A DNA stretch of 64,000 nucleotides. Source: a virus (lineage: Duplodnaviria > Caudoviricetes). The stretch spans positions 1-64,000 of the IMG/VR virus record IMGVR_UViG_3300021426_000068. One strand, written 5' to 3'. How positions within the stretch are numbered: position 1 is the stretch's first letter; each line of letters opens with the position of its first letter. The notes under the pieces were generated by a model. The model made no database searches. It had not been told where the DNA came from and saw only the letters and a list, made by a program, of their open reading frames with translations. This document shows positions 3,945-16,827 of the stretch, one piece after another. Position numbers and translations under genes: made by a program.

Positions 3945-4005
3945 AAAAAAAAATCTTCTTAATAATAAATATTAAGAAGATTACAAATTCTATGCCATAT
4001 TGTTT

Positions 4006-4356
4006 TTACTTAGTCTTAGGTTCAACTGATTTTCCACGAATAATATTTTCAAGTGCATCAAAGATAGATGAAATTGCTTTCCAATCGTAAAATCCGTTTG
4101 CTGCACCACCTGCAAGTAAACCAGCAACAGCACCAACCACATATTCCCAAACCACAGGAAGACCAAATGTTAAACCACCTGTTGCAACAAAACCTAACGC
4201 TATAACAACTGCAACAATCCAAGAAATCAAATGTCTTACCCAAGCAGTATCAATCTTGAAAATACCATTGATTACTGAAGTAAGTGTTGTTGTACCAACA
4301 ATAATAGAAGGAACAGCAATTAAAAGCTGTGATACCAATGTTGTGATAACTACCAT
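4006..4356 (-). CDS. small membrane protein (holin-like)
   Basis: 3 TM helices, GGAANGFYD, basic C-terminus. Confidence 0.5.
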   Translation of the reverse strand: MVVITTLVSQLLIAVPSIIVGTTTLTSVINGIFKIDTAWVRHLISWIVAVVIALGFVATGGLTFGLPVVWEYVVGAVAGLLAGGAANGFYDWKAISSIFDALENIIRGKSVEPKTK

Positions 4357-4417
4357 AATTTTTTGTTTTTATTTTATTATTATTTGATAAATATTATATA
4401 ATGTTTAAAAATTAGTG

Positions 4418-4509
4418 CGGAGGATACAGGATTCGAACCTGTGCGCCCATTTTTCTATGGACCTAGCGGTTTAGCAAACCGCCCCCTTCAGCCACTTGGG
4501 TAATCCTCC
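4418..4509 (-). tRNA. tRNA-Ser(GCT)
   Basis: GCGGT-TT GCT AA-ACCGC, long variable arm, G73. Confidence 0.93.
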
Positions 4510-4695
4510 GTTTTTTAAATATAAAATAGCCCCATTACGGTTACAAACCCTGGCAGACGAATACCGTACCTTTTTACTAATAATTTCCGTTTCTGCATAC
4601 ACTGTCCGTATTATTAAAAGTATCTGCTTACTCGCTAATGTGTTTATACTCACTTACTATTTATATTTATTAATAAATCACATGCCAAGTCGGGG

Positions 4696-4784
4696 AGTAC
4701 GTGACAGGATTCGAACCTGCATGGATGCTTTCACACCACTAGACGGTTTTGCAGACCGTTGCCTAACCACTCGACCACACGTAC
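4696..4784 (-). tRNA. tRNA-Cys(GCA) with long variable arm
   Basis: ACGGT-CT GCA AA-ACCGT, U73, 22-nt variable region. Confidence 0.85.
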
Positions 4785-4936
4785 ATAAAAAAAACAGGCT
4801 TTCAGAACCATCAGCACCTGTTACGAGTAGGATTATCTTTAGTCCCTACAGCAGACTCTTCATGTGTCTGTGTTCCACCAAGAGTTGTTGAGCGTTTCTT
4901 CAACACAAGTTCTAACTCAACGAGATAATTCTAAAA

Positions 4937-5254
4937 AATCAAATCTTTACTACATCATCTACTTGATATAACCTCGGCTTTCGGAGCATCATTCTACCAT
5001 CTTTCGAAGGAATGACTCTACACGAGGATTGCATTATCATTGGCTTATTTCCGCAGAAATTACCGATTTTACACCTCAGAGGTAAATGCATCTCTTATGA
5101 TTTATAGATTATATTCATAAGTACAAATTCGTATGACAACCCGACACTTTGGAACGGTTTCTTATTACGTATGTTAATGGCCACTTACATACCCGATTAC
5201 TCATATCCATTTGGCAAGGTCCTATATTAAAAATTACTAGGACAAGATTTGATT
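4937..5254 (-). ncRNA. candidate structured ncRNA (~318 nt)
   Basis: 11-bp terminal inverted repeat AATCAAATCTT, GC-richer interior, no ORF, within the tRNA array. Confidence 0.45.
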
Positions 5255-5293
5255 ATGCTTAACAAAGAAATGTTAAGGGGGAATATATTTCAA

Positions 5294-5359
5294 CAGAAAT
5301 CATTTTTACACGCTATCGAATTGGATGTTCAATAAATAAAAAATTGCTGTTAGATTTCT
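5294..5359 (-). ncRNA. ACAGCAA stem module RNA (copy 1)
   Basis: AGAAATC-TA-ACAGCAA...GATTTCT-G. Confidence 0.6.
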
Positions 5360-5369
5360 TAAAAATTAC

Positions 5370-5528
5370 TGGAGCCGAGAACAGGATTCGAACCTGCAAC
5401 CCCCTGATTAGGCAAGGTAGATAGAGTTGAACTATCATTTGCATTTCACCACTTTTAATACCCTGCAATCTGTCTCAGTAGATTATTCTGTATCAAGTCA
5501 GGTGCTCTACCGTTAAAGCTACCTCGGC
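5370..5528 (-). tRNA. tRNA-Thr(TGT) interrupted by an 83-nt insert (5411-5493)
   Basis: CCTGA-CTTG|insert|TAA-TCAGG, acceptor GCCGAGG/TCTCGGC, U73, CCA encoded. Confidence 0.85.
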
Positions 5529-5540
5529 CTATTATTTTAT

Positions 5541-5653
5541 CAGAAAACGTTGTTTTAAAATAAACCAAATTTTTGTTTATCACTTCGTAAAGTGATAAAA
5601 CAGTTGGAATCGAACCGACAATTTTTAACAAAAAAATTTGCTGTTTGTTTTCT
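5541..5653 (-). ncRNA. ACAGCAA module enclosing a permuted tRNA-like fold (copy 2)
   Basis: AGAAAAC-AA-ACAGCAA, T-arm GTCGG-TTCGATT-CCAAC, capped acceptor-like hairpin, D-like arm AAAA-TTTGGTTTA-TTTT, GTTTTCT-G. Confidence 0.65.
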
Positions 5654-5717
5654 TGTTACAAATATATAAATAAATAATATAAAAAACAAAATAATTTTAA
5701 TTTATTTATAATTTTTG

Positions 5718-5791
5718 GGTGAATGGTGGGAATCGAACCCACGTAGACAAGAACCACAATCTTGCGCCTAAACCACTCGGCCACATTCACC
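5718..5791 (-). tRNA. tRNA-His(GTG)
   Basis: CAAGA-TT GTG GT-TCTTG, encoded G-1 and C73. Confidence 0.93.
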
Positions 5792-5949
5792 ATATATACA
5801 GATTTTTTTGGTTTAACGTATATTCCGATGTATCTGCAAAATCACTACACGGGCCAGTTCCTCTCCGTTTCGCACCTTATTGGCCAGGTGTCGTAGTATG
5901 TACCATACTTCTACTACGCTGTTCCAGTTAGGTATGGATGGTAAAAGTC

Positions 5950-6139
5950 AATAATTATAGTTAAGTGCCCTTATTACCGCCTTACTCCCTTAATGTTTAG
6001 AATATTACTATCGTGCTACACCTTGGTTTTATGCATCTGGAGTTATCATATAGTGTTATACATTATATGAACGAACATGGGAGGATACTTTCATTTGCAA
6101 CCATGAACTTTGTCCACTAAACTTTTTACTATAATTATT
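5950..6139 (-). ncRNA. candidate structured ncRNA (~190 nt)
   Basis: 12-bp terminal inverted repeat AATAATTATAGT directly 3' of tRNA-Gly(GCC). Confidence 0.4.
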
Positions 6140-6141
6140 TG

Positions 6142-6215
6142 AGCAGTAGATGAGACTCGAACTCACAACCTTGACATTGGCAATGTCACTATCTAACCAA
6201 TTGATATACTACTGC
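6142..6215 (-). tRNA. tRNA-Gly(GCC)
   Basis: TGACA-TT GCC AA-TGTCA, U73. Confidence 0.92.
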
Positions 6216-6415
6216 ATTTACAGGTACGTAAACGAAATACCCTCAGAATTTCCCAATAGTTTATAGTTTAAAGACCTAAAACTATTAACTGGCTACTTCA
6301 CACCTACGAAAAACAGTCTCTTTTACCTAGGATTAGCACCCCTGTACGGTGATTGATGCTATATTACCGATGGTTATTGTACGTTACACCAAAAAGAACG
6401 TGTCTGTTTACTAAG

Positions 6416-6487
6416 AGCAGGTGAACAGAATCGAACTGTCATCCTCAGCTTGGAAGGCTGACGCACTAACCGTTGTGCTACACCTGC
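6416..6487 (-). tRNA. tRNA-Gly(TCC)
   Basis: TCAGC-CT TCC AA-GCTGA, U73. Confidence 0.93.
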
Positions 6488-6922
6488 ATAGTTGGAATTA
6501 TCGTATTCCAAAAACGTCAGAGTTTCACTGAAGGTTTTATAGCGTAAATTTTACCTCTATAAAGATATCACTACGTTTACGCAAACTCACAGTTCTTATA
6601 GTGATAATAATATTTAATGTTAAGCAACCATATCGTCTATGTTCTGCTTGTTTTATCATGGCCTTGGAAATGTTTGGGAATCGTCATTCACTTGACATTT
6701 TCCTTTCGGAACTTACTATGGTCTGTACCATGTTTTAACATTAAAATTTTAATTTTTCACAGATTAAATTTAACTGTATTGATGAAGGTTTTTAAAACTG
6801 TTATTATTTACTTTGCTAGCGTTCTTCAATAAAACAGAAAGAAATATCTCTTAAGAAACCTCTAGAATGTTCTTAACCTACGGAATCAGACACCTTCTAA
6901 ACCGTAATTCCTTTTACATTAA

Positions 6923-7129
6923 TTATCTATCAATTAAAACATTCTTTAATTGTTTGAATTCTCTTTTATCTTCTTTGTTTTTCTTCACTAATCTATCAAT
7001 TTTATCATCTTTACTACCACAATGCCTATCGTAAAATTTCTTTACTTTAAATGGGTAATCTTCAAAATCTTCACCGTAAATACCATGCTTAGATTTTGCT
7101 TTTTCAGAATGTAAATAAGTTTTTGACAT
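6923..7129 (-). CDS. small basic hypothetical protein
   Basis: ORF track; A-rich start context. Confidence 0.6.
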   Translation of the reverse strand: MSKTYLHSEKAKSKHGIYGEDFEDYPFKVKKFYDRHCGSKDDKIDRLVKKNKEDKREFKQLKNVLIDR

Positions 7130-7158
7130 AATTTTTATTTATTAAAATTAAATTTTTG

Positions 7159-7235
7159 TCGGGATGGCAGGAATTGAACCTGCATGTAACCAATTACACT
7201 TTCAACTCCTTATCAGGGAGAGGTGATACATCCCG
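7159..7235 (-). ncRNA. arm-shuffled tRNA-Ile(GAT)-like RNA
   Basis: CGGGATG acceptor, then CTCC-CT GAT AA-GGAG, then D-loop-like GTAATTGGTTAC, then T-arm GCAGG-TTCAATT-CCTGC, CATCCCG-A. Confidence 0.7.
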
Positions 7236-7246
7236 TTCATTTTTTG

Positions 7247-7369
7247 TTGAGAGTAGAGGAATCGAACCTCTGGCACGTCTTTATGATAGAATTGCTGTTA
7301 AATTGCTGTCTGTTTTTATTACGAAAAACGTTTTTTGCTTTTCGTATGTTACCACTACACCAACTCTCA
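7247..7369 (-). ncRNA. tRNA body with ACAGCAA module in the anticodon arm (copy 3)
   Basis: Normal acceptor, D and T arms; anticodon arm replaced by GTTTTTC-G-TAAT-AAAAAC-AG-ACAGCAA-TTTA-ACAGCAA plus a small TCT-ATCATAA-AGA hairpin. Confidence 0.7.
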
Positions 7370-7491
7370 ATATAAGTGGTTCATTACAATAAGGTTACAA
7401 CCGCTAAAAAAACCTAAATAGAATAGCAATCCTGCTCTAACGCTGCTTACGCATTTACTAAATTACATCATTCCTACCTGATAACTATTTG

Positions 7492-7612
7492 TGCGGAAGA
7501 ATGGATTCGAACCACTGACACAAAGATTTCCCAAAAACAAAAATTGCTGTTAATTTTTATATTCTAAAAATATTTCTTTAACTTTTGCTCTACCAGACTG
7601 AGCTACTTCCGC
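7492..7612 (-). ncRNA. tRNA-Phe-like body with ACAGCAA module in the anticodon arm (copy 4)
   Basis: GCGGAAG/CTTCCGC-A, normal D and T arms; AAAG...ATTTTTA-G-AATA-TAAAAAT-TA-ACAGCAA...GAA-AT-CTTT. Confidence 0.7.
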
Positions 7613-7814
7613 AATATAGTGAAATTGTATTCAATGTGTAAACATCAAATACCATACTTTCAGTTGTTTAACATTTCAAACTGTAAACCTCGGCTTTCAC
7701 TAAACCTACATGGTAAAAATAGTTTTAAGAAGTAACGTTAACTCTTCCTTAGCCATCTTATTTTAGTAGTATTATGACACTGCTACAATCACTTTAAGTA
7801 CTATTTGTGATTTG

Positions 7815-7899
7815 TCGGAATGATGGGATTCGAACCCATAAGCCCATTACAGGCACAAGTTCCTTAGACTTGCGTGTCTACCAATTGCACCACATTCCG
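7815..7899 (-). tRNA. tRNA-Leu(AAG)
   Basis: CAAGT-CT AAG GA-ACTTG, long variable arm, A73. Confidence 0.88.
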
Positions 7900-8168
7900 A
7901 TGGTGTTATACTTTTGTCACGGTTATATCCTTCTTTGCTTATTGCCACTTTAGATTATACTAAAGACAAAGGGTGTTATAACTTAGTAGGCTTAACAAAC
8001 CTAGTTCATCTTTTTATTGGTTCATGCATGTCCGCTACAATGTAAAAAAGATGTTCCCGATTGAAAAAACACTTATTGAAATCTTATACTGCTAAACGGC
8101 CATTTAGCAAAGATTTCTCACAACAGTGACAGGAATGGCCTGTTGAACCCCTTGTTCCTGTCTTTCAG

Positions 8169-8364
8169 TACTGGGTAGGGGAATCGAACCCCTATTACAA
8201 GAATGAGAGATTGTTGTAAGAGTTGAACTTACTCGTGGAGTTTTTCTATCCACTTCACCACTTTATTGGTACAACGACTTTCCTGTATTCGTCAAACAAT
8301 CTTTTAATTTGTTCAGGTTTATTCCTGTATAAATCTTGTGTACTAACCTTTATACGAACCCAGT
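8169..8364 (-). tRNA. tRNA-Glu (TTC or CTC) interrupted by a ~124-nt insert (8207-8330)
   Basis: CAAGA-TTT|insert|TCAT-TCTTG; a 1-nt junction shift gives CTC. Confidence 0.8.
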
Positions 8365-8385
8365 TTTTTAATTAAGATTTATAAG

Positions 8386-8458
8386 TAGCGCATTGCGGAT
8401 TCGAACCGCAGTGAAAGGACTGAAAATCCCTCATCCTGAACCACTAGATGAATGCGCC
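8386..8458 (-). tRNA. tRNA-Glu(TTC)
   Basis: AGGGA-TT TTC AG-TCCTT. Confidence 0.92.
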
Positions 8459-8466
8459 ATTATTCG

Positions 8467-8539
<73 letters not shown>

Positions 8540-8810
8540 ATAAAACCATACTTTAAAATCCTTTATCGAACACTTGTATGGTAATGACAAAACACGTCAG
8601 TTTTCACAGTCATATATCACTGATGGATTGTTTTACTTAAGTCATGACAAACTTAAAACTAAATAAAATTTAGAAATGATTTCTATGCATAGTATGTTAT
8701 TTCCCTTTTCTTTTGTTACTGTTTTTATTTTTATACTACTTAAAAACACTAGTAATCCAAATCGCAAATAACAAGTGACAGCCAAAAGTTATAAAAATTG
8801 TAGTTTATAT

Positions 8811-8929
8811 CGGAAAGCAATTGTTTTACATCCTTTAGGATGGGGTTGGACTTGAACCAACGAACCTCTCATGTTTTCATTTTTAGTGAAAAATGTTAAA
8901 CCATAAAAGTAAATTGCTGTATACTTTCC
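8811..8929 (-). ncRNA. ACAGCAA module enclosing a T-arm and capped hairpin (copy 5)
   Basis: GGAAAGT-AT-ACAGCAA...GTTGG-TTCAAGT-CCAAC, CATCC-TAAA-GGATG...GCTTTCC-G. Confidence 0.6.
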
Positions 8930-8936
8930 TATTTTG

Positions 8937-9008
8937 CGGTCGGTACGAGAATCGAACTCGTGTCTCCAGAGCGACAATCTGGAAGGATAACCACTACCCC
9001 AACCGACC
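8937..9008 (-). tRNA. tRNA-Asp(GTC)
   Basis: CCAGA-TT GTC GC-TCTGG, G73. Confidence 0.92.
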
Positions 9009-9073
9009 GTTTTTAATCTTTTTTACAAATATACAATAAATATATTTAAAAAACAATAAAAATATAAAATTTG

Positions 9074-9141
9074 TACCTCATGCGGATTCGAACCAGTCCT
9101 TCCTATTCCTGTAGGACGTGCTACCCTTACACCATAGAGAT
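9074..9141 (-). pseudogene. degenerate tRNA-like element
   Basis: D arm and GGTTCGAATCC present, but 6-nt anticodon loop (CAGGAA) and imperfect T and acceptor stems. Confidence 0.5.
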
Positions 9142-9473
9142 TCTGATTTAACAGACACATTAATGTGTTTCGAACCAAATTAATATGCCACCAAGTTTAA
9201 TATACTATACTTAAATATTATAATAATAAAAAACTAAGTTAATTATTATTTGATTTAAGTCACTACTTGCAAGATTTATGTAATTATAAATTATAATACT
9301 AGCGACAAACTTGGAAACGCAATTTAAAGCATTATAATATATTAAGAGCATCATATTAATTTGCAACTTAATATGAATTGTTACTTGCTGTTTTAATTTA
9401 AACTATAACCCCATGTCTCCCTCGAATATGCATTGACTAGTTACATACTTGTGGATTCTTCAAGTATCTCTCG

Positions 9474-9556
9474 TGGGTAGGGGAGGATTCGAACCTCCGA
9501 AGCCGTAGGGCGTCAGATTTACAGTCTGATGCGTTTGACCACTTCGCTACCTACCC
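9474..9556 (-). tRNA. tRNA-Tyr(GTA)
   Basis: TCAGA-CT GTA AA-TCTGA, long variable arm. Confidence 0.95.
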
Positions 9557-9683
9557 ATAGAACCGATATACCTCAGCCTCGGTAAACAACTCTGACACTA
9601 AACGATTCAGATGGTGGGACAAAGCCACGCATGAGTTTCGATTCTTAGATAAACTAGTATTTCTAAGACTGTACTAAAACAAA

Positions 9684-9950
9684 AAAGATATTAGAGGAAC
9701 TTTATCAGGAATCTTGCTAACATATACCGAACTTATAAGAAACTTACGCACTTGTTTCTTAACAACTTGTCACGTCCATATACTGCTTCACACACCATTA
9801 GAGAGACGATAAATATAAAACCCAACAATATTTATTTTCCTTAGTGTGTACCTTTCCGTACTGTTTAACCTGTTCAGCGTTAAAACTCACTGTCAATTCA
9901 GTTAACTGCTCTCCCAGCCTGTTCCAATCAACGTCTTTACTAATATCTTT
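9684..9950 (-). ncRNA. candidate structured ncRNA (~267 nt)
   Basis: 11-bp terminal inverted repeat AAAGATATTAG, no ORF. Confidence 0.45.
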
Positions 9951-9957
9951 AAATTAA

Positions 9958-10326
9958 TTATTCTATATTTGTTATATAAATATCTTTTGGATGTTCGCCA
10001 AATACATCATGTGTTACATTACATATCCATATTTCATGGTCAATTATACCAAGTTCATTTGTTAAAATTTCAGCAAATTCATTGTATAAAATTCCAGAAA
10101 TTCCATAATATGCACCTTCACTATCATGTTTTTTAAGATTAAAATGTAATAATGTATTATTAGAATACTCATCAGATATTTCCAATACTATTTCTTTTTT
10201 ACCTTTTGACAACAAATCTAATGCTATGTCAGAACCCATTACCATTTCATTTTCTTCTAACGTATGATTTGGAATATCTGCATACCATTTATTGTCTTGT
10301 TTAAAACATTTAATCTTTTTTTTCAT
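9958..10326 (-). CDS. conserved hypothetical protein
   Basis: WYADIP...EMVMGSD...IWICNVT..VFG.HP..IY. Confidence 0.75.
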   Translation of the reverse strand: MKKKIKCFKQDNKWYADIPNHTLEENEMVMGSDIALDLLSKGKKEIVLEISDEYSNNTLLHFNLKKHDSEGAYYGISGILYNEFAEILTNELGIIDHEIWICNVTHDVFGEHPKDIYITNIE

Positions 10327-10341
10327 ATTTCTAATTTTTTG

Positions 10342-10414
10342 TGGGCACAGGTAGAATCGAACTACCGCTGTAATCTTGTAAGGGTTACCGTCTAAACCAC
10401 TAGCTTATGCACCC
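10342..10414 (-). tRNA. tRNA-Val(TAC)
   Basis: TAACC-CT TAC AA-GATTA (one mismatch), A73. Confidence 0.8.
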
Positions 10415-10636
10415 AAAATTGCCCATCCATCTTTCATGATGTCTCAGTGAACACGCAAGGTCTTTTGCGTATGCTAAACCAATGTATCCTCTTTGTGCTA
10501 CTTCTTCGTCTATATTCAGAGTTAATACGATTACCTACACATACTCAATACAAATTTTAACTATACACCAGCCATTACCTTCCCTCTGATTCGGTAACTT
10601 CTTCTCATATAGTTGATAAGATGGCCCAACAAGACG

Positions 10637-10707
10637 TTGGGATATCATGATTCGAACATGAACTGAGAGAGCCAAAATCTCTAGTGCTACCATTACACCA
10701 TATCCCA
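10637..10707 (-). tRNA. tRNA-Gln(TTG)
   Basis: U1:A72, AGAGA-TT TTG GC-TCTCT. Confidence 0.92.
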
Positions 10708-10875
10708 ATAAAGGTAGCCACAGTCTTATTACTACCATTGAGTACTACGTTCTGTGCAACGTCTTTAAGTACATCTCACACCTTAAAGAATCCTAGTAAT
10801 ATTGATTAGACATTTATCTAATAAGATTTAGGAAAAGTTATTACAAATATACAATTTTATTTTTAGAAAAGCAAT

Positions 10876-11009
10876 CAGAAAACGTGTTTATTCTGTTTTA
10901 TCCGCTAAACTAATACTTATTGCATACATAATAAGTATGGTGGATTCGAACCAACCGACTTTTTCATTACAGGAAATAATATAACATAAAAAATTGCTGT
11001 TTATTTTCT
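10876..11009 (-). ncRNA. ACAGCAA module enclosing a complete circularly permuted tRNA (GTA loop) (copy 6)
   Basis: AGAAAAT-AA-ACAGCAA, TTTC-CT GTA AT-GAAA, AAGTC, T-arm, ATACTTA-linker-TAAGTAT, TA, D arm GTTT-AGCGGATA-AAAC, GTTTTCT-G. Confidence 0.72.
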
Positions 11010-11038
11010 TAAAAATTGCTTTGTTTTTTGTATGCTAG

Positions 11039-11206
11039 CGGGTACGGTAGGATTCGAACCTACGACCTGAGGATTAGGTACACTATTCAGATTTGAACTG
11101 AAATTACCAATGTTTAGGTTTCTTACCATTAGAAGATAATGTACTGGTTTATTACGGTGAACCACACCTTATACAGTCCCCTGCACTACCACTGTGCTAC
11201 ATACCC
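11039..11206 (-). tRNA. tRNA-Asn(GTT) interrupted by a 96-nt insert (11077-11172)
   Basis: GGGGA-CTGT|insert|TAA-TCCTC, G73. Confidence 0.85.
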
Positions 11207-11945
11207 TAATATATTCTATTAAATCTTTTTTCTTATTAGGTAATTTGTTTTTTTTACACCACTTCTTTAATGCATTATCAGAAACATTTAACTGTTTTCC
11301 AACAGATGTAAAACTACCATTTGTTTTAAATAATTCTAAAAAATATTCAATTGAAAGTTTAGAAAGTTTGTTGTTTTGTTTCTGATACTTAATATCATTC
11401 CTTTTCAACAATCTATTTAATGTTGAAATACTTATTAAGTATTTTTTAGAAATTTCTTTTTTTGTTAAATTATTAACAATATCATTTTTAATGCTATTAA
11501 TATCAATGCCATTAACAAATGTTTTGTTTTTTCTTTTTTCTTTATGCAATGAAAAATAATTTATTTCGTTTTCTGTTTCTTTTTTGTTTCGATTTTTAAC
11601 TTCTTCTTTAATTTTACTATGTATTTCTCTATGACAATTAGCACAAACTAAAATACATTTATCTGCTTCTTTTTTTAATGTTTCAAATTTAAGAGTATTA
11701 CCACAAGAAATACCAAATTCTTTTTCTTGTGGGTTTAAATGATGAAATTCGAGAGCATCAATACATTTATCATAACCACATATTTCACATTTACCACCTT
11801 TATATTCAACTAGTTTAATTTTATTTTTTTTTCTAGTATCTATAACTGCTTTTTTTCTACATTCTTTACATTTATAAGCACCATTAGTTAATACGTGTTC
11901 TGTGATACCATGTTTGGGGCATTCTTTAAATATTATATTTTTCAT
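11169..11945 (-). CDS. HNH homing endonuclease with C-terminal HTH
   Basis: KGGKCEICGY..CIDALEFHHLNP...CILVCANCHREIH. Confidence 0.88.
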   Translation of the reverse strand: MKNIIFKECPKHGITEHVLTNGAYKCKECRKKAVIDTRKKNKIKLVEYKGGKCEICGYDKCIDALEFHHLNPQEKEFGISCGNTLKFETLKKEADKCILVCANCHREIHSKIKEEVKNRNKKETENEINYFSLHKEKRKNKTFVNGIDINSIKNDIVNNLTKKEISKKYLISISTLNRLLKRNDIKYQKQNNKLSKLSIEYFLELFKTNGSFTSVGKQLNVSDNALKKWCKKNKLPNKKKDLIEYIRVCSTVVVQGTV

Positions 11946-12017
11946 AATTTACTTTTATAATAAATATAACCAAAAATCAAAAAATTAAACATTTTAGTTA
12001 ATTTTTATAAAAGTTAG

Positions 12018-12088
12018 TACACCCATAGTGATTCGAACACTAATAATCACTTTAGAAGAGTGATGTCCTTCCATTGAACGATGGGTGC
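12018..12088 (-). tRNA. tRNA-Arg(TCT)
   Basis: TCACT-CT TCT AA-AGTGA. Confidence 0.92.
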
Positions 12089-12148
12089 ATATGCCGTTCC
12101 TACGTCTTCTTTTTGTTTAAATAATTTAAAACAATTTCATCAAATTTG

Positions 12149-12466
12149 TGACCCCTGTGGGACTCGAACCCACGACCCCGACATTAACTTTACCACTATA
12201 ACTTTCATTATCCAACTCAATGAGTTGTTGTGGTCTGGACTATTTCATAACCATGCATTTCTGTTTAGGTTTCTCCTATATAGTCTCTACGCCATTTATG
12301 AACAATGTTCAATTTAGTAAGCCATCACCACATAATATGTCACCATATTACAGGCTTCTGTTTGTTAGGGAGATTCTACTTTAACAATTTCTTGTTAAGC
12401 ACTCTTTTTTTGTAATTTTATTACAAATTTTAAGTGTCGTGCTCTAGCCAACTGAGCTAAGAGGTC
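12149..12466 (-). tRNA. tRNA-Lys(TTT) with group I intron
   Basis: CGACA-CTT|intron|TTAA-TGTCG. Confidence 0.87.
12188..12431 (-). mobile_element. group I intron (244 nt, no ORF) in tRNA-Lys anticodon
   Basis: 5' exon ends in U, intron ends in G, P7 pair GACTA (GTAGAGACTATA) / TAGTC (GAAATAGTCCAG). Confidence 0.85.
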
Positions 12467-12574
12467 AATCCAATCTAATAATATATACATGGGGTATCTT
12501 ATTCCTATCCATGTGTTACTTCCTAAATCCCTTAGTACTTTTTAAGTACAATATATTATTAAATCAAAAATTTG

Positions 12575-12649
12575 TGGGGCCGAGTGGAGTTGAACCACTG
12601 CCTATGGATTTTCAGTCCATTGTACAATAACCACCTATACGACAGCCCC
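12575..12649 (-). tRNA. tRNA-Phe(GAA)
   Basis: ATGGA-CT GAA AA-TCCAT. Confidence 0.9.
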
Positions 12650-12844
12650 ATAAATTGTAATACTCAATGCAGTAATACGTACTCCTGCAAATTTTACATC
12701 CAGTGTTTTAACCTCATAAACTACTCACGCATCCGCTACTGAAAGACTTGAACTAACTTCTCTGGGTTGTAGTATTTTTAAAAAAAATTTTTGTAACGTC
12801 AAAAATATCTGAAAAAACGAAAAACACATATGAGTTTTTAAAAG

Positions 12845-12916
12845 TACTCCCAACAGGAATCGAACCTATACTATTAGTTCCGTAGACTAACGTTCTATCC
12901 GTTAAACTATGGGAGC
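12845..12916 (-). tRNA. tRNA-Arg(ACG)
   Basis: TTAGT-CT ACG GA-ACTAA, A20. Confidence 0.9.
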
Positions 12917-12927
12917 ATAATAATTAG

Positions 12928-12999
12928 CAGGAGCACTCTGATTCAAACAGAGGTCAGAACTTTTGGAGAGTCCTATGTTAATCACTACACCATGCTCCT
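12928..12999 (-). tRNA. tRNA-Trp(CCA)
   Basis: GGACT-CT CCA AA-AGTTC, G73; atypical T loop TTTGAAT. Confidence 0.85.
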
Positions 13000-13177
13000 G
13001 TATATATTATTAATAATAAAATTTCCACGAAGGGAGAAGTCTAACTCCCACTTCGTTTAACGACTTTTTACTAACAGAACAACATATCCACGTTTGTCTT
13101 TCCTATTTGTATTTTTGATACATCAAAAGCCTGAGGTCTGTGGACGATAACTCTAAACACAATGTTGTTAAATTATA

Positions 13178-13244
13178 CGGAAAACATTTATTGGCATTAA
13201 AAACCCATTTTTTAATAATTGAAATAAGTTGCTGTACGTTTTCC
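13178..13244 (-). ncRNA. ACAGCAA stem module RNA (copy 7)
   Basis: GGAAAAC-GT-ACAGCAA...GTTTTCC-G. Confidence 0.6.
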
Positions 13245-13249
13245 TTTTG

Positions 13250-13405
13250 TCGGGAAGACAGGACTCGAACCTGCGACCCCTGGTTCGGTCTGTATATAAG
13301 ATTCGAACTTATGATACTTCCGTTATTATACAGACTCACCAATTTTTCAGCTATTGGTTAACTGTAGCCAAAACCAGTGTTCTAAACCAACTGAACTACT
13401 TCCCG
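13250..13405 (-). tRNA. tRNA-Pro(TGG) interrupted by an 81-nt insert (13287-13367)
   Basis: CTGGT-TTTGG|insert|GA-ACCAG, C1:G72, A73. Confidence 0.87.
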
Positions 13406-13651
13406 ATATAATAACCGAGGTTCTTACTGTGCTCGGTCCACAGGATAGAAACTATTAACGTCACCATCATACAACATCGAATTTTATGAATAAGATTGTT
13501 ACCACGATGTATTTTACTTCCCTAATAAGTAAAGTATAACAAAATATGGTTTGCACTGTGTCCACACAGGTAACAAAAACATGTGGAAACCATTAAGTAC
13601 ACTATTTGTTACCTACCATTACTCTGTAATGGATTTAATTTAATATTAAAT

Positions 13652-13826
13652 AAAAAGTTAATAAAAAGGAATTCCGTAGTCACCTTTTTTAAATAAGAAA
13701 CCTCTTGCACTATTTACACAAGCCTAAAGCGTAACTAATCCTTATTTTCCACTGTTTTGATGCCTTGATATTCAGCCATATTTAGAATATTATGTTATAG
13801 CATCCCCAACTTGTAATTAACTTTTT
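13652..13826 (-). ncRNA. candidate structured ncRNA (~175 nt)
   Basis: 11-bp terminal inverted repeat AAAAAGTTAAT directly 3' of tRNA-Met. Confidence 0.3.
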
Positions 13827-13827
13827 G

Positions 13828-13902
13828 TTGCGTAGACTGGGATTGAACCAGTGACCTAGAGGATATGAATCTCACGTTCTAACCAGACTGAACTATTACG
13901 CT
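13828..13902 (-). tRNA. tRNA-Met(CAT), probably initiator
   Basis: TT CAT AT loop, unpaired 1:72; weak anticodon stem. Confidence 0.75.
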
Positions 13903-13909
13903 AAATCAA

Positions 13910-13991
13910 CAGGAAACATAAAATAAAATGTTACAAAACCCAAAAATTTGCTATTTTAATTAATTTATTATAAATTTGCTGTAAGTTTCCT
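13910..13991 (-). ncRNA. ACAGCAA stem module RNA (copy 8)
   Basis: AGGAAAC-TT-ACAGCAA...GTTTCCT-G. Confidence 0.6.
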
Positions 13992-13995
13992 TAAA

Positions 13996-14781
13996 TTAAC
14001 TTTCTTTAATATTTTTAATTATTTTTTCTTTCCAATAGTTTCTTCTTGTACTATTTTTATTTTTTGATTTAAATGTTTCTAATTGAGTATCACAATTTGG
14101 ACATATCATTCTAAGATTATCTCTTCTGTTATTTGCAGCATTTCCATCAATATGGTCAAGTACAAAAACTAGTGGCTTACCATTCCATTCTGGTTTACAT
14201 GTGCAACCTTCAATAGCACATTCATAATTCTGTTCTTTCAAAAAGAAATCTTTGAAACTTTTAGGTGTGTATCCGCCATTACAATATTGTTCATTATTTT
14301 CTAAAAATCTTTCATAAGAAATTTTATGTTTATATTTACTTGAACAACTATTGGAACAGAATTTTGTTTGATTACCATTTAATTCTTTATCACAATTTAA
14401 ACAATATTTTTTTACTTTTATTTTTTCTTGAATAATTCGTTTATTCTTACGTTTTTTTAATTTTGTTTTTATTTTTTCTTTAGTTTCGTCACTATGTTTT
14501 CTTCCTTTATTATTATAGGTTGCAGCACAAGATGAACTACAAAATTTTGTTTGTCCACGTTTTAGTTCTTTACCACAATTTAAACAATATTTCTTTTTTT
14601 TCTTTTTATAAAAAGAGAAGTCAAAACCGATTTTTTCCGCAATATCATTTATATAACTGATTCCAATTTTATTATCTGGAATATTGAAATATGAATGTAT
14701 ATCACCTTTTTTCTCAAAAGATTCAAATATTTCTAATACGTTTTTCTTCTTTTCTTCAGTTGAAATATCAATACTATTCAT
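13996..14781 (-). CDS. HNH homing endonuclease (Zn-finger repeats, NUMOD3-like)
   Basis: CLNC...FCSxSC twice, HSDETKEKI, LDHIDGNAANNRRDNLRMICPNC. Confidence 0.88.
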   Translation of the reverse strand: MNSIDISTEEKKKNVLEIFESFEKKGDIHSYFNIPDNKIGISYINDIAEKIGFDFSFYKKKKKKYCLNCGKELKRGQTKFCSSSCAATYNNKGRKHSDETKEKIKTKLKKRKNKRIIQEKIKVKKYCLNCDKELNGNQTKFCSNSCSSKYKHKISYERFLENNEQYCNGGYTPKSFKDFFLKEQNYECAIEGCTCKPEWNGKPLVFVLDHIDGNAANNRRDNLRMICPNCDTQLETFKSKNKNSTRRNYWKEKIIKNIKES

Positions 14782-14855
14782 AATAAATTTGTTTATATAT
14801 AAATAGTATATATTTCGGAAAAAATCAAGATTGAACATGAAAAAATAAACAATTG

Positions 14856-14945
14856 CGGAGGCAGTAGGATTCGAACCCACGCGGCCCTGTTACAAGCCCT
14901 AGCTGATTTCAAGTCAGCCCCCTTCAACCACTTGGGTATGCCTCC
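14856..14945 (-). tRNA. tRNA-Ser(TGA)
   Basis: GCTGA-CT TGA AA-TCAGC, long variable arm, G73. Confidence 0.94.
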
Positions 14946-15118
14946 ATTGGTGACTGGATAAGTTATCACACTACACCAGTCAGTTATGGTTAAATTATTT
15001 CAATTCACATATCTATAATTAACATTATATAATATTTATCAGACTTGTCAATGAACTTATCAAAGTTTTTACAAATATACTAAGAAGTTTTGATATTTCA
15101 AAATATATTTTTATTTTT

Positions 15119-15153
15119 CTGTTTTTTAATATATCAAATACTGTGCCAAACTT
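15119..15153 (-). promoter_or_regulatory. sigma54-like promoter, copy of a 35-bp direct repeat
   Basis: TTGGCACA-GTAT-TTGA; identical to 15531-15565. Confidence 0.55.
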
Positions 15154-15177
15154 TAAAATTTCACAATATTTTTTATG

Positions 15178-15261
15178 TGGCACAGGTGGGAATCGAACCC
15201 ACACTCTCAAATGAGAACAACATTTTGAGTGTTGCGTGTATACCAATTTCACCACTGTGCC
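15178..15261 (-). tRNA. tRNA-Leu(CAA)
   Basis: CAACA-CT CAA AA-TGTTG, long variable arm. Confidence 0.93.
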
Positions 15262-15267
15262 AAAAAT

Positions 15268-15513
15268 AATCTTGAAAATAAACAGGCTTACCTTAGATTT
15301 ACACCTCTCACGGAAGGTTAAGGAAACACCGTCATGTTTTATGCTCGCTGAAGTTTCGAACCCATCAGTATCTTTAAAGCAACCTTAATTACTTTTGTTC
15401 CGACTATACCATTTCACACTCTGTACACAAGCGGTAATTTTATACTTGGTAGCACTCTTTGTCATTTAATTTTTCGTTAGTGACCAACCCTGGGATGTAA
15501 CGTTTTCAAGATT
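15268..15513 (-). ncRNA. candidate structured ncRNA (~246 nt)
   Basis: 11-bp terminal inverted repeat AATCTTGAAAA, internal GGGTTCGAAAC T-loop-like motif, just downstream of a sigma54-like site. Confidence 0.45.
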
Positions 15514-15530
15514 TTTTATTTTTCAAAGAA

Positions 15531-15565
15531 CTGTTTTTTAATATATCAAATACTGTGCCAAACTT
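15531..15565 (-). promoter_or_regulatory. sigma54-like promoter, copy of a 35-bp direct repeat
   Basis: Identical to 15119-15153. Confidence 0.55.
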
Positions 15566-15577
15566 AAAATATCTCAT

Positions 15578-15611
15578 AAAAAAAACCTCCTAAGATGTAT
15601 ACTTGGAGGTT
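15578..15611 (-). terminator. intrinsic terminator (attenuator)
   Basis: AACCTCCAAG-loop-CTTAGGAGG-T8; the 5' arm can alternatively pair with the end of the leader ORF. Confidence 0.75.
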
Positions 15612-15667
15612 GGGAATATATTGTGGTTAGAAACCTATGTGTGTTTTTGTACCTATTTACTATATCC

Positions 15668-15793
15668 CTACTCCAAGTTTTTTTCTCTAAAGTTTCCTTT
15701 AGATGCTTTTGGGTCTACTGATGGCATACCAAACCAATAACTTGTTTGAACCAAGCCATTGCAAAGATTAATATTTGTATTGATATGTCTCAT
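15668..15793 (-). CDS. putative 41-aa attenuator leader peptide
   Basis: MRHINTNINLCNGLVQTSYWFGMPSVDPKASKGNFREKNLE-TAG; last codons overlap the antiterminator strand. Confidence 0.65.
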   Translation of the reverse strand: MRHINTNINLCNGLVQTSYWFGMPSVDPKASKGNFREKNLE

Positions 15794-15934
15794 ATTAGGA
15801 TATTTTTTCAACTATAAATATTTTATTTTTTACAAAAATACATATTTTTTAATAAAAAAACAATATTTTTTGTGAAATTTTTAAAAAAAGTTAAATTTTC
15901 AGGTAAATTTATTCTTTTTCGAATAAATTCATTG

Positions 15935-16005
15935 TGACACATATAGGATTCGAACCCATCTATTCTGTTTTAGGGACAGCTGACCAACCCCTGGTCCAAT
16001 GTGCC
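15935..16005 (-). tRNA. amber-reading tRNA (anticodon CTA)
   Basis: GGCACAT/ATGTGTC-A, GACC/GGTC D arm, CTGT-CC CTA AA-ACAG, normal T arm; C33 is atypical. Confidence 0.7.
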
Positions 16006-16058
16006 ATATTTGGGGATTGATTAAAGGATAATCCCCATAAATCCTTGACAACAATAAG

Positions 16059-16346
16059 TTATTTAACTGTTTCTAAATTTTTAAAAAGTTCACCTGTATC
16101 ATCTTGTACTGCGATTGCAGTTATAGAATAATTTAAATCAGGTTCACGAAATGCAGAGAAACGAATTCCCATTCTTTGAAGTTTGTTAAACCACTTATCA
16201 GTATCAGCATATAAATATATTAAATAGTCATTGTTCCAATCTTGATTTGGATTATTTATCATCCATTGTGCAACTGCATGTCCACCTTGCACACATCCGT
16301 ATACGGGTCTAAGTTTTTTATTCACTAATACGTATAATCTTTTCAT
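16059..16346 (-). CDS. peptidyl-tRNA hydrolase II (Pth2)-like protein
   Basis: LYVLV...VQGGHAVAQW...FREPDL..SITAIA. Confidence 0.7.
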   Translation of the reverse strand: MKRLYVLVNKKLRPVYGCVQGGHAVAQWMINNPNQDWNNDYLIYLYADTDKWFNKLQRMGIRFSAFREPDLNYSITAIAVQDDTGELFKNLETVK

Positions 16347-16827
16347 AGTTGTCAATGTCATAATCTAATGTTTTATACTTTTCACCGTTCCATCTTTTAT
16401 ACTCAATTTCAACTCTTGGAAGACGATATCCATAATTTTCAAGATAATAATTAATAGCAATTAAGTACATTGTTAAAGGGTGTTTACCTTCAAACTTTTC
16501 ATATTTATAATTAATATAATTAATAGGATTTAAGGATATTGTTGAAGGGTGTTTAAGAAATATGCCAAACAATTCATAATAATCCTTAAGTTTAATTGGT
16601 TTGGCATTTTTTTCTGTGATATAAAAATTCTTACCTCTTAAAAGATTGTATGCAGCATACATTGCTCTTAATAATTCCTTATTATGTTTTGCTGTTACCC
16701 AAGCATCATAAGGTGTTAATGTTCTTTCACCTTTAAAGTGAACGGTTTTTCTTTGTGGTTTAATTGTTTTTTGTTCTTTTTCTAATTTAGCAATTTGTTC
16801 TCTGAATTCTTTAATAATTGTTTCCAT
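16318..16827 (-). CDS. hypothetical protein
   Basis: ORF track; overlaps the Pth2 start. Confidence 0.75.
   Translation of the reverse strand: METIIKEFREQIAKLEKEQKTIKPQRKTVHFKGERTLTPYDAWVTAKHNKELLRAMYAAYNLLRGKNFYITEKNAKPIKLKDYYELFGIFLKHPSTISLNPINYINYKYEKFEGKHPLTMYLIAINYYLENYGYRLPRVEIEYKRWNGEKYKTLDYDIDNYEKIIRISE

What the first reader, a model, noticed from the sequence alone, without database searches (positions are those of the whole stretch)
5294..13991. Eight-copy 'stem-NN-ACAGCAA' RNA module in three topologies (Y-RNA-like)
Seen: the minus-strand consensus is a 7-bp purine-rich strand, 2 nt, invariant ACAGCAA, a U-rich tract, and later the complementary strand followed by G. Stem sequences co-vary (AGAAATC/GATTTCT, AGAAAAC/GTTTTCT, GGAAAGT/GCTTTCC, GGAAAAC/GTTTTCC, AGGAAAC/GTTTCCT). 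It occurs alone (5294, 13178, 13910), wrapped around permuted tRNA folds (5541, 8811, 10876), and circularly permuted inside the anticodon arm of normal tRNA bodies (7247, 7492). Established: bacterial YrlA Y RNAs join a Ro60-binding terminal stem to a tRNA-like domain with the T arm before the D arm and a loop-capped acceptor stem. Inference: a protein-binding handle that tethers tRNA mimics to a phage or host RNA repair/decay protein, or acts as a sponge. The motif is not one I recognise as the canonical Ro site, and no TROVE gene is in this window.
Basis: partly seen in the sequence, partly recalled or inferred. Interest (0 to 1): 0.88.

Follow-up and report, generated by a model that had tools for sequence, protein, structure and literature searches.

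The report
Handle-tagged tRNA-mimic RNAs of a phage
Eight small RNAs scattered through this large phage's tRNA gene block share one "handle" (a 7-bp stem followed by ACAGCAA). In many other phages and giant viruses the same handle lies right beside the gene for a Ro60-shaped ring protein, so these are probably an uncatalogued kind of Y RNA, some of them built from rearranged tRNAs.

Summary
Six minus-strand copies have a 7/7-paired stem, 2 nt, ACAGCAA, then the complementary strand plus G. Two more have the stem capped as a hairpin inside tRNA bodies. Shuffles of the region give 0.014 full copies.

They belong to a large RNA family. I first found it outside the window, downstream of a gene for a DUF2828+DUF7788 protein. 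Its predicted fold matches Ro60/TROVE over its full length. A covariance model was built only from 60 such RNAs in other viruses:
- It hits 172 sites in 80 loci of that gene, all on the gene's strand and downstream of it.
- It hits four window copies (E 1e-7 to 2e-4).
- It hits RNAs beside the gene in Felix O1, Listeria LP-048, mycobacteriophage LeBron, Campylobacter PC14 and Bacillus Tsamsa.

All three topologies recur in other viruses. The long form has the YrlA plan: T arm, capped acceptor stem, D arm.

Best reading: Y-RNA-like partner RNAs of a Ro60-like protein. Binding is inferred, not shown. This 132-kb contig, estimated 37% complete, lacks the gene.

The only Rfam family that recognises the handle, below threshold, is Dictyostelium Class I RNA.

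This scan has noted the same pairing on other DNA (182 notes, at least 160 genomes). I found no published description.

The parts
5294..5359 (-). Minimal handle RNA ('alone' form): stem AGAAATC/GATTTCT, TA, ACAGCAA, inner hairpin, trailing G
   Evidence: 7/7 pairs plus G. Model R1, built from other viruses, scores 36.0 bits, E 1e-7, full length. The MFE fold keeps the terminal stem.
5541..5653 (-). Long handle RNA wrapping a permuted tRNA-like body: anticodon-like hairpin (loop UUUGUUA), T arm, capped acceptor stem, D-like arm, 3' strand plus G
   Evidence: It aligns in register with 35 long forms from other viruses (A4).
7247..7369 (-). tRNA body with an open 7-bp acceptor stem, D arm and T arm. 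Between the D arm and a short CAU hairpin it carries a capped stem plus two tandem ACAGCAA (cores at 7292-7298 and 7303-7309).
   Evidence: acceptor 7/7, T arm. The same topology occurs in at least 12 other viral loci.
7492..7612 (-). tRNA body (Rfam tRNA 49 bits) with the handle capped as a hairpin (ATTTTTA-G-AATA-TAAAAAT, TA, ACAGCAA) inserted after the D arm
   Evidence: R1 gives a local hit at 7529-7562, 12.8 bits. The MFE fold is an alternative that places ACAG in an apical loop.
8811..8929 (-). Long handle RNA: stem GGAAAGT/GCTTTCC, hairpin with loop UUCACUA, T arm, loop-capped 5-bp acceptor-like helix, no D arm
   Evidence: The MFE fold keeps the terminal stem, T arm and capped helix.
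10876..11009 (-). Long handle RNA wrapping a complete permuted tRNA: anticodon hairpin with loop CUGUAAU (GUA), T arm, 9-bp capped acceptor, U8-A9, D arm with GG
   Evidence: It is in register in A4, where RNAalifold finds the terminal stem, T arm, capped acceptor and D arm with 21 of 23 pairs covarying. R1 scores 24.7 bits, E 2e-4, with an alternative nearer 3' partner.
13178..13244 (-). Minimal handle RNA: stem GGAAAAC/GTTTTCC, GT, ACAGCAA
   Evidence: R1 scores 35.1 bits, E 1.8e-7. The MFE fold keeps the stem.
13910..13991 (-). Minimal handle RNA: stem AGGAAAC/GTTTCCT, TT, ACAGCAA. It ends 8 nt before tRNA-Met.
   Evidence: R1 scores 27.8 bits, E 2.5e-5. Rfam Dicty_Class_I_RNA gives a full-length match of 25 bits against a gathering score of 41.5.

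Best explanation
The eight elements are small non-coding RNAs, probably made from the same transcripts as the phage's tRNAs. They belong to a widespread, uncatalogued family of 'ACAGCAA-handle' RNAs.

The handle has four parts: a 7-bp clamp helix that joins the two ends (outer A-U and G-C pairs, inner C-G pair), a 2-3 nt spacer, single-stranded ACAGCAA on the 5' side, and a G after the 3' strand. I take it to be the recognition site for a ring protein of the DUF2828+DUF7788 family, a divergent Ro60 (TROVE plus vWA/MIDAS) relative. This parallels the way the 5' strand of a Y RNA stem is read by Ro60.

The segment between ACAGCAA and the 3' strand is a variable payload:
- a small hairpin (3 copies);
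- a circularly permuted tRNA-like body, T arm then loop-capped acceptor then D arm, as in bacterial YrlA (3 copies);
- the inverse arrangement, with the handle grafted as an extra arm between the D arm and the anticodon arm of an otherwise ordinary tRNA body (2 copies).

The particle would present tRNA-shaped RNA to, or recruit, enzymes that act on tRNA, such as an exonuclease like PNPase or repair enzymes like RtcB or Thg1-like proteins. Likely roles are tRNA quality control, or decoying during the phage-host conflict over tRNA.

Shown here: family membership, stem covariation, strict strand and position linkage to the gene in other viruses, and the Ro60-like fold of the protein. Inferred: binding, the effector and the biological role. 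The partner gene is not on this 37%-complete contig.
For: 1. Linkage found from the protein side. In 76 viral loci of the DUF2828 gene with at least 300 nt downstream, 69 carry at least one full module downstream on the gene strand. There are 166 full modules in 281 kb downstream, 3 in 436 kb upstream or within the gene, and 8 in 717 kb of the opposite strand. The median distance from the stop codon is 186 nt.
2. Model R1, built from 60 of these RNAs, gives 172 hits at E<=0.01 in the 80 loci. All are on the gene strand and downstream.
3. R1 contains no window sequence, yet hits window copies at E 1e-7, 1.8e-7, 2.5e-5 and 2e-4.
4. Covariation: 6 of 7 stem pairs change on both sides, in 149 cells.
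5. Linkage found from the RNA side. Of 119 loci fetched only by the pattern 'ACAGCAA ... T arm', 29 hold a DUF2828 gene within 15 kb or less. In a control set of 118 loci only one does, and that one is a true locus.
6. Cultured phages of four bacterial phyla carry R1 hits beside the gene or in the adjoining tRNA array, on the same strand: Tsamsa, LP-048, Felix O1, LeBron (whose gene is annotated 'RNA-binding protein' in this record and 'Ro-like RNA binding protein' in related mycobacteriophage records) and PC14.
7. The protein model (pLDDT 84, pTM 0.84) has Ro60/TROVE structures as its 11 best PDB matches, aligned over the full length.
8. The long forms share a terminal stem, T arm, capped acceptor and D arm, with 21 of 23 pairs covarying. 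Two window copies align in register. Rfam YrlA gives sub-threshold full-length hits on relatives, 31-38 bits, E down to 7e-5.
9. Lak-B2, a Prevotella megaphage, has a DUF2828+DUF7788 ORF with a module about 100 nt upstream.
Against: - No DUF2828, DUF7788, TROVE, RtcB or RRM gene lies on the 132.8-kb contig. The contig is only about 37% complete, so this is weak evidence.
- One complete 49.5-kb phage (G003) has a long-form module but no DUF2828 gene at E<=0.001. The RNA can therefore exist without a phage-encoded partner.
- No binding, expression or RNA-end data were available.
- Kinship of this phage to the Lak phages is not established. An 894-aa window protein finds nothing in them.
- The handle sequence differs from every known Ro60 site, and the Rfam YrlA model does not hit the window at E<=5.
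Confidence: 0.7

Rival explanations
1. The modules are processing or punctuation signals of the polycistronic tRNA transcript. They would be structures cut by a host or phage RNase to release neighbouring tRNAs, with no role as stable RNAs.
For: In the window they abut tRNAs: 13910 ends 8 nt before tRNA-Met, and 13244, 8929 and 5359 start 6-10 nt after a tRNA. The conserved AAG start and CUG end could mark cleavage sites.
Against: - Arrays of up to eight modules occur with no tRNA in the locus (L103/L119).
- They track the DUF2828 gene rather than tRNAs.
- The payloads are elaborate, covarying tRNA-like folds with capped acceptor stems.
- The handle is also grafted inside tRNA bodies.
Confidence: 0.08
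2. The wrapped and grafted copies are permuted or interrupted tRNA genes. They would be matured into working tRNAs by excision at the handle, circularisation and opening of the acceptor cap, with the handle acting as a splicing signal as the bulge-helix-bulge motif does in archaea and red algae.
For: Copy 10876-11009 has every tRNA part, including a GUA anticodon loop, U8-A9 and GG in the D loop. Both connectivities of the same junction occur, which is the logic of intron-containing versus permuted tRNA genes.
Against: - Most family members have no tRNA parts at all, being 38-66 nt hairpins.
- The acceptor caps are short loops with no discriminator or CCA context.
- Position 37 is often a pyrimidine in the window's anticodon-like loops.
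- Normal tRNA-Tyr, tRNA-Phe and tRNA-Met genes already exist in the array.
- No RtcB is found on the contig, and I did not search for a splicing endonuclease.
- YrlA offers a precedent for non-decoding permuted tRNA mimics.
Confidence: 0.08
3. The RNAs act on their own, or with a host factor, as decoys or sponges for host tRNA-targeting nucleases or tRNA-binding proteins. Co-location with DUF2828 in other viruses would then reflect shared regulation rather than a complex.
For: A complete 49.5-kb phage carries a long-form module without a DUF2828 gene. This contig lacks the gene. Anticodon-like loops are displayed: GUA, UGU, CAC and CAU.
Against: The invariant handle, as opposed to the payload, is the feature that travels with the gene in bacteriophages and in giant-virus bins. 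A decoy needs only the tRNA-like part. Minimal forms carry no obvious target mimic.
Confidence: 0.1
4. The motif is a DNA-level site such as a promoter, terminator, recombination site or transposon end.
For: It is a short conserved heptamer in AT-rich intergenic DNA. The flanking inverted repeats could be read as DNA hairpins.
Against: - Strand bias is absolute: 172 of 172 model hits are on the gene strand, and all window copies are on the tRNA strand.
- Stems covary while the core is invariant.
- G-U pairs, which would be mismatches in duplex DNA on the other strand, are tolerated.
- The arms lie 40-130 nt apart and enclose covarying tRNA-like helices.
Confidence: 0.01

Closest known systems
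Ro60/Rsr with Y RNAs, especially bacterial and phage YrlA (Rfam RF02553; Chen et al. 2014, PMC4201824; Thermus phage phiLo Ro60-Yrl, PMC12135203)
   Same: - Small RNAs are encoded next to the gene of a Ro60-fold ring protein, on the same strand and often in several copies.
- A terminal stem joins the 5' and 3' ends, with a conserved motif on the 5' side.
- The long form carries a tRNA-like domain in the order T arm, loop-capped acceptor stem, D arm.
- A short form without the tRNA domain also exists, like YrlB.
- RtcB lies nearby in Listeria phage LP-048, as in the Salmonella rsr-yrlBA-rtcBA operon (established knowledge for the latter; for LP-048).
   Different: - The protein belongs to Pfam DUF2828+DUF7788, not TROVE, with no sequence-level PDB match.
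- The conserved RNA motif is ACAGCAA, not GNCGAA/GGUCCGA.
- The Rfam YrlA model does not hit the window and reaches only 31-38 bits on relatives, against a gathering score of 69.
- Many long copies keep an anticodon-like hairpin.
- A third topology exists, with the handle grafted into an open-ended tRNA.
- The RNAs are embedded in viral tRNA arrays.
Dictyostelium Class I RNAs (Rfam RF01414; Kjellin et al. 2021, PMC7919456)
   Same: - A short terminal stem joins the ends.
- The RNA starts AAG and ends CUG(U).
- Invariant ACAGCAA lies right after the 5' strand. Copy 13991 reads CUUACAGCAA against the 11-nt motif CCUUACAGCAA.
- The interior is variable and A/U-rich, and sizes of about 40-65 nt are shared with the viral minimal forms.
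- RF01414 is the only Rfam family besides tRNA that repeatedly matches the modules full-length: 8 hits of 23-27.6 bits.
- A Thg1-like enzyme acts on Class I RNA in Dictyostelium (PMC5041481), and this phage encodes a Thg1-family protein.
   Different: - All scores are below the gathering score of 41.5.
- The spacer is 2 nt rather than 3.
- There is no DUSE promoter or Pol III context.
- The host is a virus, not a dictyostelid.
- The known Class I binder is the RRM protein CIBP/Rnp1A. No link of Class I RNAs to a Ro60-like protein is known, and I could not test whether Dictyostelium has one.
Circularly permuted tRNA genes (Cyanidioschyzon merolae type) and permuted two-piece tmRNA
   Same: The 3' half (T arm, acceptor 3' strand) lies upstream of the 5' half (acceptor 5' strand, D arm). 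Flanking sequences pair with each other.
   Different: Nothing indicates processing into a mature tRNA. The junction lies between the D and anticodon arms and carries a conserved protein-type motif rather than a bulge-helix-bulge. Most family members have no tRNA parts.

Membership tests
   Window hits: 5292-5362 at E 1e-7, 13176-13247 at E 1.8e-7, 13908-13994 at E 2.5e-5, 10968-11012 at E 2e-4. The other four copies give only local or weak hits because of their long payloads.
   None on the 132.8-kb contig, but CheckV completeness is 37%. The gene is present in Lak-B2 with a module upstream and in 3 of 5 whole records that hold long-form modules.
   Minimal forms. Wrapped permuted tRNA in 70 of 132 pattern matches. 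Handle grafted into open tRNA bodies in at least 12 loci.
Y RNA / YrlA (Rfam RF02553) | Rfam covariance model score at or above the gathering score of 69 bits | tested here: not met
   No YrlA hit in window 4000-16500 at E<=5. Relatives' long forms reach 30.8-37.9 bits.
Y RNA / YrlA (Rfam RF02553) | Ro60-binding motif GNCGAA(N)G / GGUCCGA on the 5' strand of the terminal stem | tested here: not met
   The conserved motif is ACAGCAA in all copies. The canonical motif is as given in Chen 2014 and the phiLo paper.
Y RNA / YrlA (Rfam RF02553) | tRNA-like domain with the T arm before the D arm and a loop-capped acceptor stem | tested here: met
   Copies 5541 and 10876 align with 35 relatives. RNAalifold gives the terminal stem, T arm, capped acceptor and D arm, with 21 of 23 pairs covarying. 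Copy 8811 lacks the D arm.
Y RNA / YrlA (Rfam RF02553) | Bound by a Ro60 (TROVE) protein and tethers it to an effector such as PNPase | not testable with these tools
   There is only genetic linkage to a Ro60-fold protein of another Pfam family.
Dictyostelium Class I RNA (Rfam RF01414) | Rfam model score at or above the gathering score of 41.5 bits | tested here: not met
   25.0 bits for 13934-13989. Seven modules of other viruses score 22.9-27.6 bits.
Dictyostelium Class I RNA (Rfam RF01414) | Short terminal stem plus the 11-nt motif CCUUACAGCAA beside the 5' strand, with AAG start and CUGU end | tested here: inconclusive
   The stem, ACAGCAA, the AAG start (5 of 6 copies) and the C(U/C)G end are present. 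The four bases before ACAGCAA are not conserved and the spacer is 1 nt shorter.
Dictyostelium Class I RNA (Rfam RF01414) | DUSE promoter about 60 nt upstream; dictyostelid genome | tested here: not met
   The record is an IMG/VR virus contig with PHROG-type phage genes. The RNAs lie inside a tRNA array.
Permuted tRNA genes matured by splicing | Bulge-helix-bulge junction and a mature, aminoacylatable tRNA product | not testable with these tools
   The gene order is permuted, but the junction carries the ACAGCAA handle. I did not search for a splicing endonuclease, and RtcB is absent from the contig.

The most novel reading that the evidence does not exclude
The viral ACAGCAA-handle RNAs and the Class I RNAs of dictyostelid amoebae may be one RNA family. 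Class I RNAs would then be the Y-RNA equivalents of a DUF2828-type Ro60-like protein. Their 5' ends would be maintained by Thg1-like 3'-5' polymerases, an enzyme family that this phage and several other handle-bearing phages also encode. This would give the long-unexplained Class I RNAs a biochemical partner. It would also define an RNP shared by bacteriophages, giant viruses and a eukaryotic lineage.
Probability: 0.3. Interest if true: 0.92.

Novelty: new variant of a known kind. Interest (0 to 1): 0.8.

Why it matters
Ro60-Y RNA particles are a classic RNA-surveillance system and a human autoantigen. Their known RNA partners share one binding motif. The data here point to a second, much larger viral branch:
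- It has its own protein clade. That clade is labelled only 'DUF2828', 'vWFA' or 'RNA-binding protein' in 692 GenBank phage records, including Felix O1-type, P100/A511-type and mycobacteriophage genomes.
- It has its own RNA handle, which is in no RNA catalogue.
- That handle is used to tag hairpins, permuted tRNAs and whole tRNAs.

This gives a testable function to unannotated RNAs inside phage tRNA arrays. It suggests a mechanism for tRNA quality control or decoying during infection. It also offers a concrete lead for the unexplained Class I RNAs of Dictyostelium.

This window adds a case in which all three topologies sit together in one tRNA array, with no partner gene within 132 kb.

Tried and rejected
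- The pattern scan AAGAAAAYNNACAGCAA in viral contigs was too loose. Of 118 loci, only L103 was a true relative.
- Single-protein searches for relatives of three window proteins found nothing. The 894-aa protein also finds nothing in Lak or three other large phages, so kinship to Lak remains open.
- DNA similarity to GenBank phages covers only HNH and tRNA pieces.
- No RRM_1, TROVE, RtcB, DUF2828 or DUF7788 is on the contig.
- Rfam at gathering thresholds finds only tRNAs in the window and in 15 DUF2828 loci.
- The profile of the protein family finds no solved structure by sequence; only the fold search does.
- R1 over whole Lak-A1 and Lak-B2 genomes gives only weak hits, E about 0.03. The Lak-B2 module upstream of its DUF2828 gene has a 3-nt spacer.
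- The genome-contig scan with the protein alignment returned only two MAG contigs, because its peptide patterns were clade-specific.
- Two attempts to learn whether Dictyostelium has a DUF2828 protein, or what DDB_G0281243 is, were uninformative.
- Papers naming DUF2828, UCP015417 or PF11443 mention them only in passing in unrelated studies. A search combining ACAGCAA with Y RNA, Ro-like or tRNA-like terms also turned up no description of this RNA family.
- An early idea that the handle is a self-cleaving ribozyme, or an Sm/Hfq-type U-tract site, was dropped. The U-tract is not conserved and no ribozyme family matched.

Full report
**Setting**

The window is the first 64 kb of a 132,807-bp IMG/VR virus contig. 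The contig has 27.6% G+C and CheckV puts it at 37% complete. PHROG matches are phage-type: an SbcC-like protein, an endonuclease and a PurZ-like synthetase. The minus strand between about 4,400 and 16,000 carries a tRNA array. ARAGORN finds 21 genes there and Rfam adds several tRNAs with long inserts.

**Observation**

Reading the minus strand and a script confirm six canonical copies. Each has a 7-nt purine-rich strand, 2 nt, ACAGCAA, 40-120 nt, the complementary 7 nt, then G. All six pair 7/7. They lie at 5359-5294, 5653-5541, 8929-8811, 11009-10876, 13244-13178 and 13991-13910.

Two further copies have the stem capped by a loop and sit inside tRNA bodies, at 7612-7492 and 7369-7247. The second carries two tandem ACAGCAA.

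Dinucleotide shuffles of the region give 0.51 ACAGCAA and 0.014 full motifs. The region itself holds 10 and 7. No such copy occurs elsewhere on the contig.

Five of the six canonical copies start AAG, and all end C(U/C)G.

The wrapped copies have, in order:
- an anticodon-like hairpin, with loops UUUGUUA, UUCACUA and CUGUAAU;
- a T arm;
- an acceptor helix closed by a short loop;
- in two of the three copies, a D arm.

The break therefore lies between the D arm and the anticodon arm.

**What it is**

Rfam gave no family at gathering thresholds. With relaxed thresholds the only non-tRNA match of note was Dicty_Class_I_RNA on copy 13991, full length, at 25 bits.

A loose pattern scan of viral contigs was mostly noise, but one locus, L103, had eight tandem modules. 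They lie directly downstream of a gene for a DUF2828+DUF7788 protein with a vWA MIDAS motif. I then took several steps.

1. I aligned 33 homologues (A1) and fetched 80 viral loci of this gene.
   - A script found full modules downstream on the gene strand in 69 of the 76 loci that have enough flank.
   - The counts are 166 modules in 281 kb downstream, 3 in 436 kb upstream or within the gene, and 8 in 717 kb of the other strand.
2. I built covariance model R1 from 60 of these RNAs (A2). Six of the seven stem pairs show double changes, in 149 cells. Pairedness itself was a selection criterion and so carries no weight.
   - R1 gives 172 hits at E<=0.01 in the 80 loci, every one on the gene strand and downstream of the gene.
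   - R1 holds no window sequence, yet it finds four window copies at E 1e-7 to 2e-4.
3. The AlphaFold model of the protein has pLDDT 84 and pTM 0.84. Its 11 best PDB matches are Ro60/TROVE structures aligned over the whole length: Xenopus and human Ro60, Deinococcus Rsr and Thermus phage phiLo Ro60.
   - The PHROG label is 'RNA-binding protein'.
   - Related mycobacteriophage records (Archie, DrSeegs, Enceladus) call their homologue 'Ro-like RNA binding protein'. The LeBron record labels gp53 'RNA-binding protein'.
4. tblastn finds the protein in 692 GenBank phage records. All five cultured phages I examined have R1 hits beside the gene or in the adjoining tRNA array, on the same strand:
   - Bacillus phage Tsamsa;
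   - Listeria phage LP-048, which also has RtcB 1.3 kb downstream;
   - Salmonella phage Felix O1, where the hits interleave with tRNAs as in this window;
   - mycobacteriophage LeBron;
   - Campylobacter phage PC14.
5. Lak-B2, a Prevotella megaphage, has a 461-aa DUF2828+DUF7788 ORF with a module about 100 nt upstream. That module has a 3-nt spacer.

**The three topologies are general**

I scanned viral contigs for ACAGCAA followed within 15-45 nt by a T-arm consensus.

- Seventy of the matches are closed by the 7/7 complement plus G. They enclose a T arm, a capped acceptor and a D arm.
- An alignment of 35 of these with two window copies (A4) gives an RNAalifold consensus of terminal stem, T arm, capped acceptor and D arm. 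Twenty-one of the 23 pairs show compensatory changes.
- Rfam YrlA gives sub-threshold, partly full-length hits on such elements: 30.8-37.9 bits, E down to 7e-5, against a gathering score of 69.
- Among the unclosed matches, at least 12 show the window's third topology. That topology has an open 6-7 bp acceptor stem, a D arm, a capped handle stem, ACAGCAA, an anticodon-like region, a T arm and the acceptor 3' strand.
- Twenty-nine of these 119 RNA-selected loci contain a DUF2828 gene within the fetched 15 kb or less. In the control set only one locus does.

**Mechanism**

By analogy with Ro60 and Y RNAs, the clamp helix plus single-stranded ACAGCAA is most likely the binding site of the DUF2828 ring. 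In the known system the protein reads mainly the 5' strand of the terminal stem, and the rest of the RNA tethers an effector such as PNPase. On this view the payload is what is presented to other factors.

The repeated company of tRNA arrays, RtcB and Thg1-family genes points to tRNA surveillance, repair or decoying. Thg1-family genes occur here at 46784-47608 and in 3 of 5 other handle-bearing records. All of this is inference. No binding or expression data could be obtained.

**Caveats for this window**

The contig has no partner gene, but it is about one third of a genome. One complete 49.5-kb phage has a long-form module without the gene. A host-encoded or absent partner therefore cannot be excluded.

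**Relation to known families**

This system works like Ro60/YrlA. It fails the membership tests for YrlA on both motif and model score, and the protein belongs to a different Pfam family.

It also closely resembles Dictyostelium Class I RNAs. Those have a terminal stem, an AAG start, CCUUACAGCAA, a CUGU end and a length of 42-65 nt. RF01414 gives eight full-length sub-threshold hits on modules.

In Dictyostelium a Thg1-like enzyme adds the 5' G of Class I RNA. One of the four pull-down proteins, DDB_G0281243, is of unknown function. I could not determine whether it, or any Dictyostelium protein, is DUF2828-like.

**Novelty**

I found no paper describing DUF2828's function or an ACAGCAA RNA partner. 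Rfam 15 has no such family.

After reaching these conclusions I looked up the scan's notes. The same protein-RNA pairing has been noted on other DNA 182 times, in at least 160 genomes. Several follow-ups reach the same reading, including the Class I resemblance. These are AI notes, not independent evidence.

**Verdict**

The finding is a real feature.

Noticed in passing
window 46784-47608 (+): A 274-aa ORF matches Pfam Thg1 (tRNA-His guanylyltransferase family), 96 bits. Thg1-family genes also occur in 3 of 5 other handle-bearing phage records tested (G001, G004, Lak-B2). In Dictyostelium a Thg1-like enzyme acts on Class I RNAs.
   Followed up: partly
window 5373-5528, 11039-11206, 13250-13405 (-): Three tRNA genes are matched end to end by the Rfam tRNA model but carry inserts of about 85-95 nt in the anticodon region. 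Each insert contains its own T-arm-like hairpin. Each is immediately followed or preceded by a handle RNA.
   Followed up: no
window about 12100-12470 (-): A tRNA-like gene has its two halves separated by about 250 nt of structured sequence in the anticodon loop, which looks like a group I-type intron. Neither Rfam nor ARAGORN called it.
   Followed up: no
window 16981-18171 (-): A 396-aa ORF matches phrog_1211 (PurZ-type adenylosuccinate synthetase relative, E 5e-35). This hints that the phage may replace adenine with 2-aminoadenine in its DNA.
   Followed up: no
window 11169-11945 and 13996-14880 (-): Two ORFs sit inside the tRNA array. The one at 13996-14880 has zinc-ribbon/treble-clef matches and a sub-threshold HNH_3 match. 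The one at 11169-11945 has only a sub-threshold helix-turn-helix match. The stretch around 11600-11800, inside the second ORF, is the main DNA similarity to Lak and other jumbo phages, where it falls under HNH endonuclease annotations.
   Followed up: partly
window 8207-8301 and 7159-7235 (-): Two aberrant tRNA-like genes. ARAGORN calls the first with a 2-nt anticodon. Rfam scores the second only 33.6 bits, and its arms appear out of order.
   Followed up: no
L223 (IMGVR_UViG_3300006143_000018, 49.5 kb, complete with terminal repeats): A small complete phage carries a well-formed long-form handle RNA but no DUF2828 homologue at E<=0.001. This is a natural test case for whether the RNA can work with a host partner.
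   Followed up: partly
L227 1-552 (-) and L321 5683-5940 (-): A ROOL RNA (254 bits) and a tmRNA (94 bits) lie in the same phage tRNA arrays that hold handle RNAs.
   Followed up: no
L186 7242-7372 and 7376-7507; L126 5719-5847: These are nested modules. An outer handle RNA has a complete inner handle RNA, with its own ACAGCAA, as its payload.
   Followed up: no
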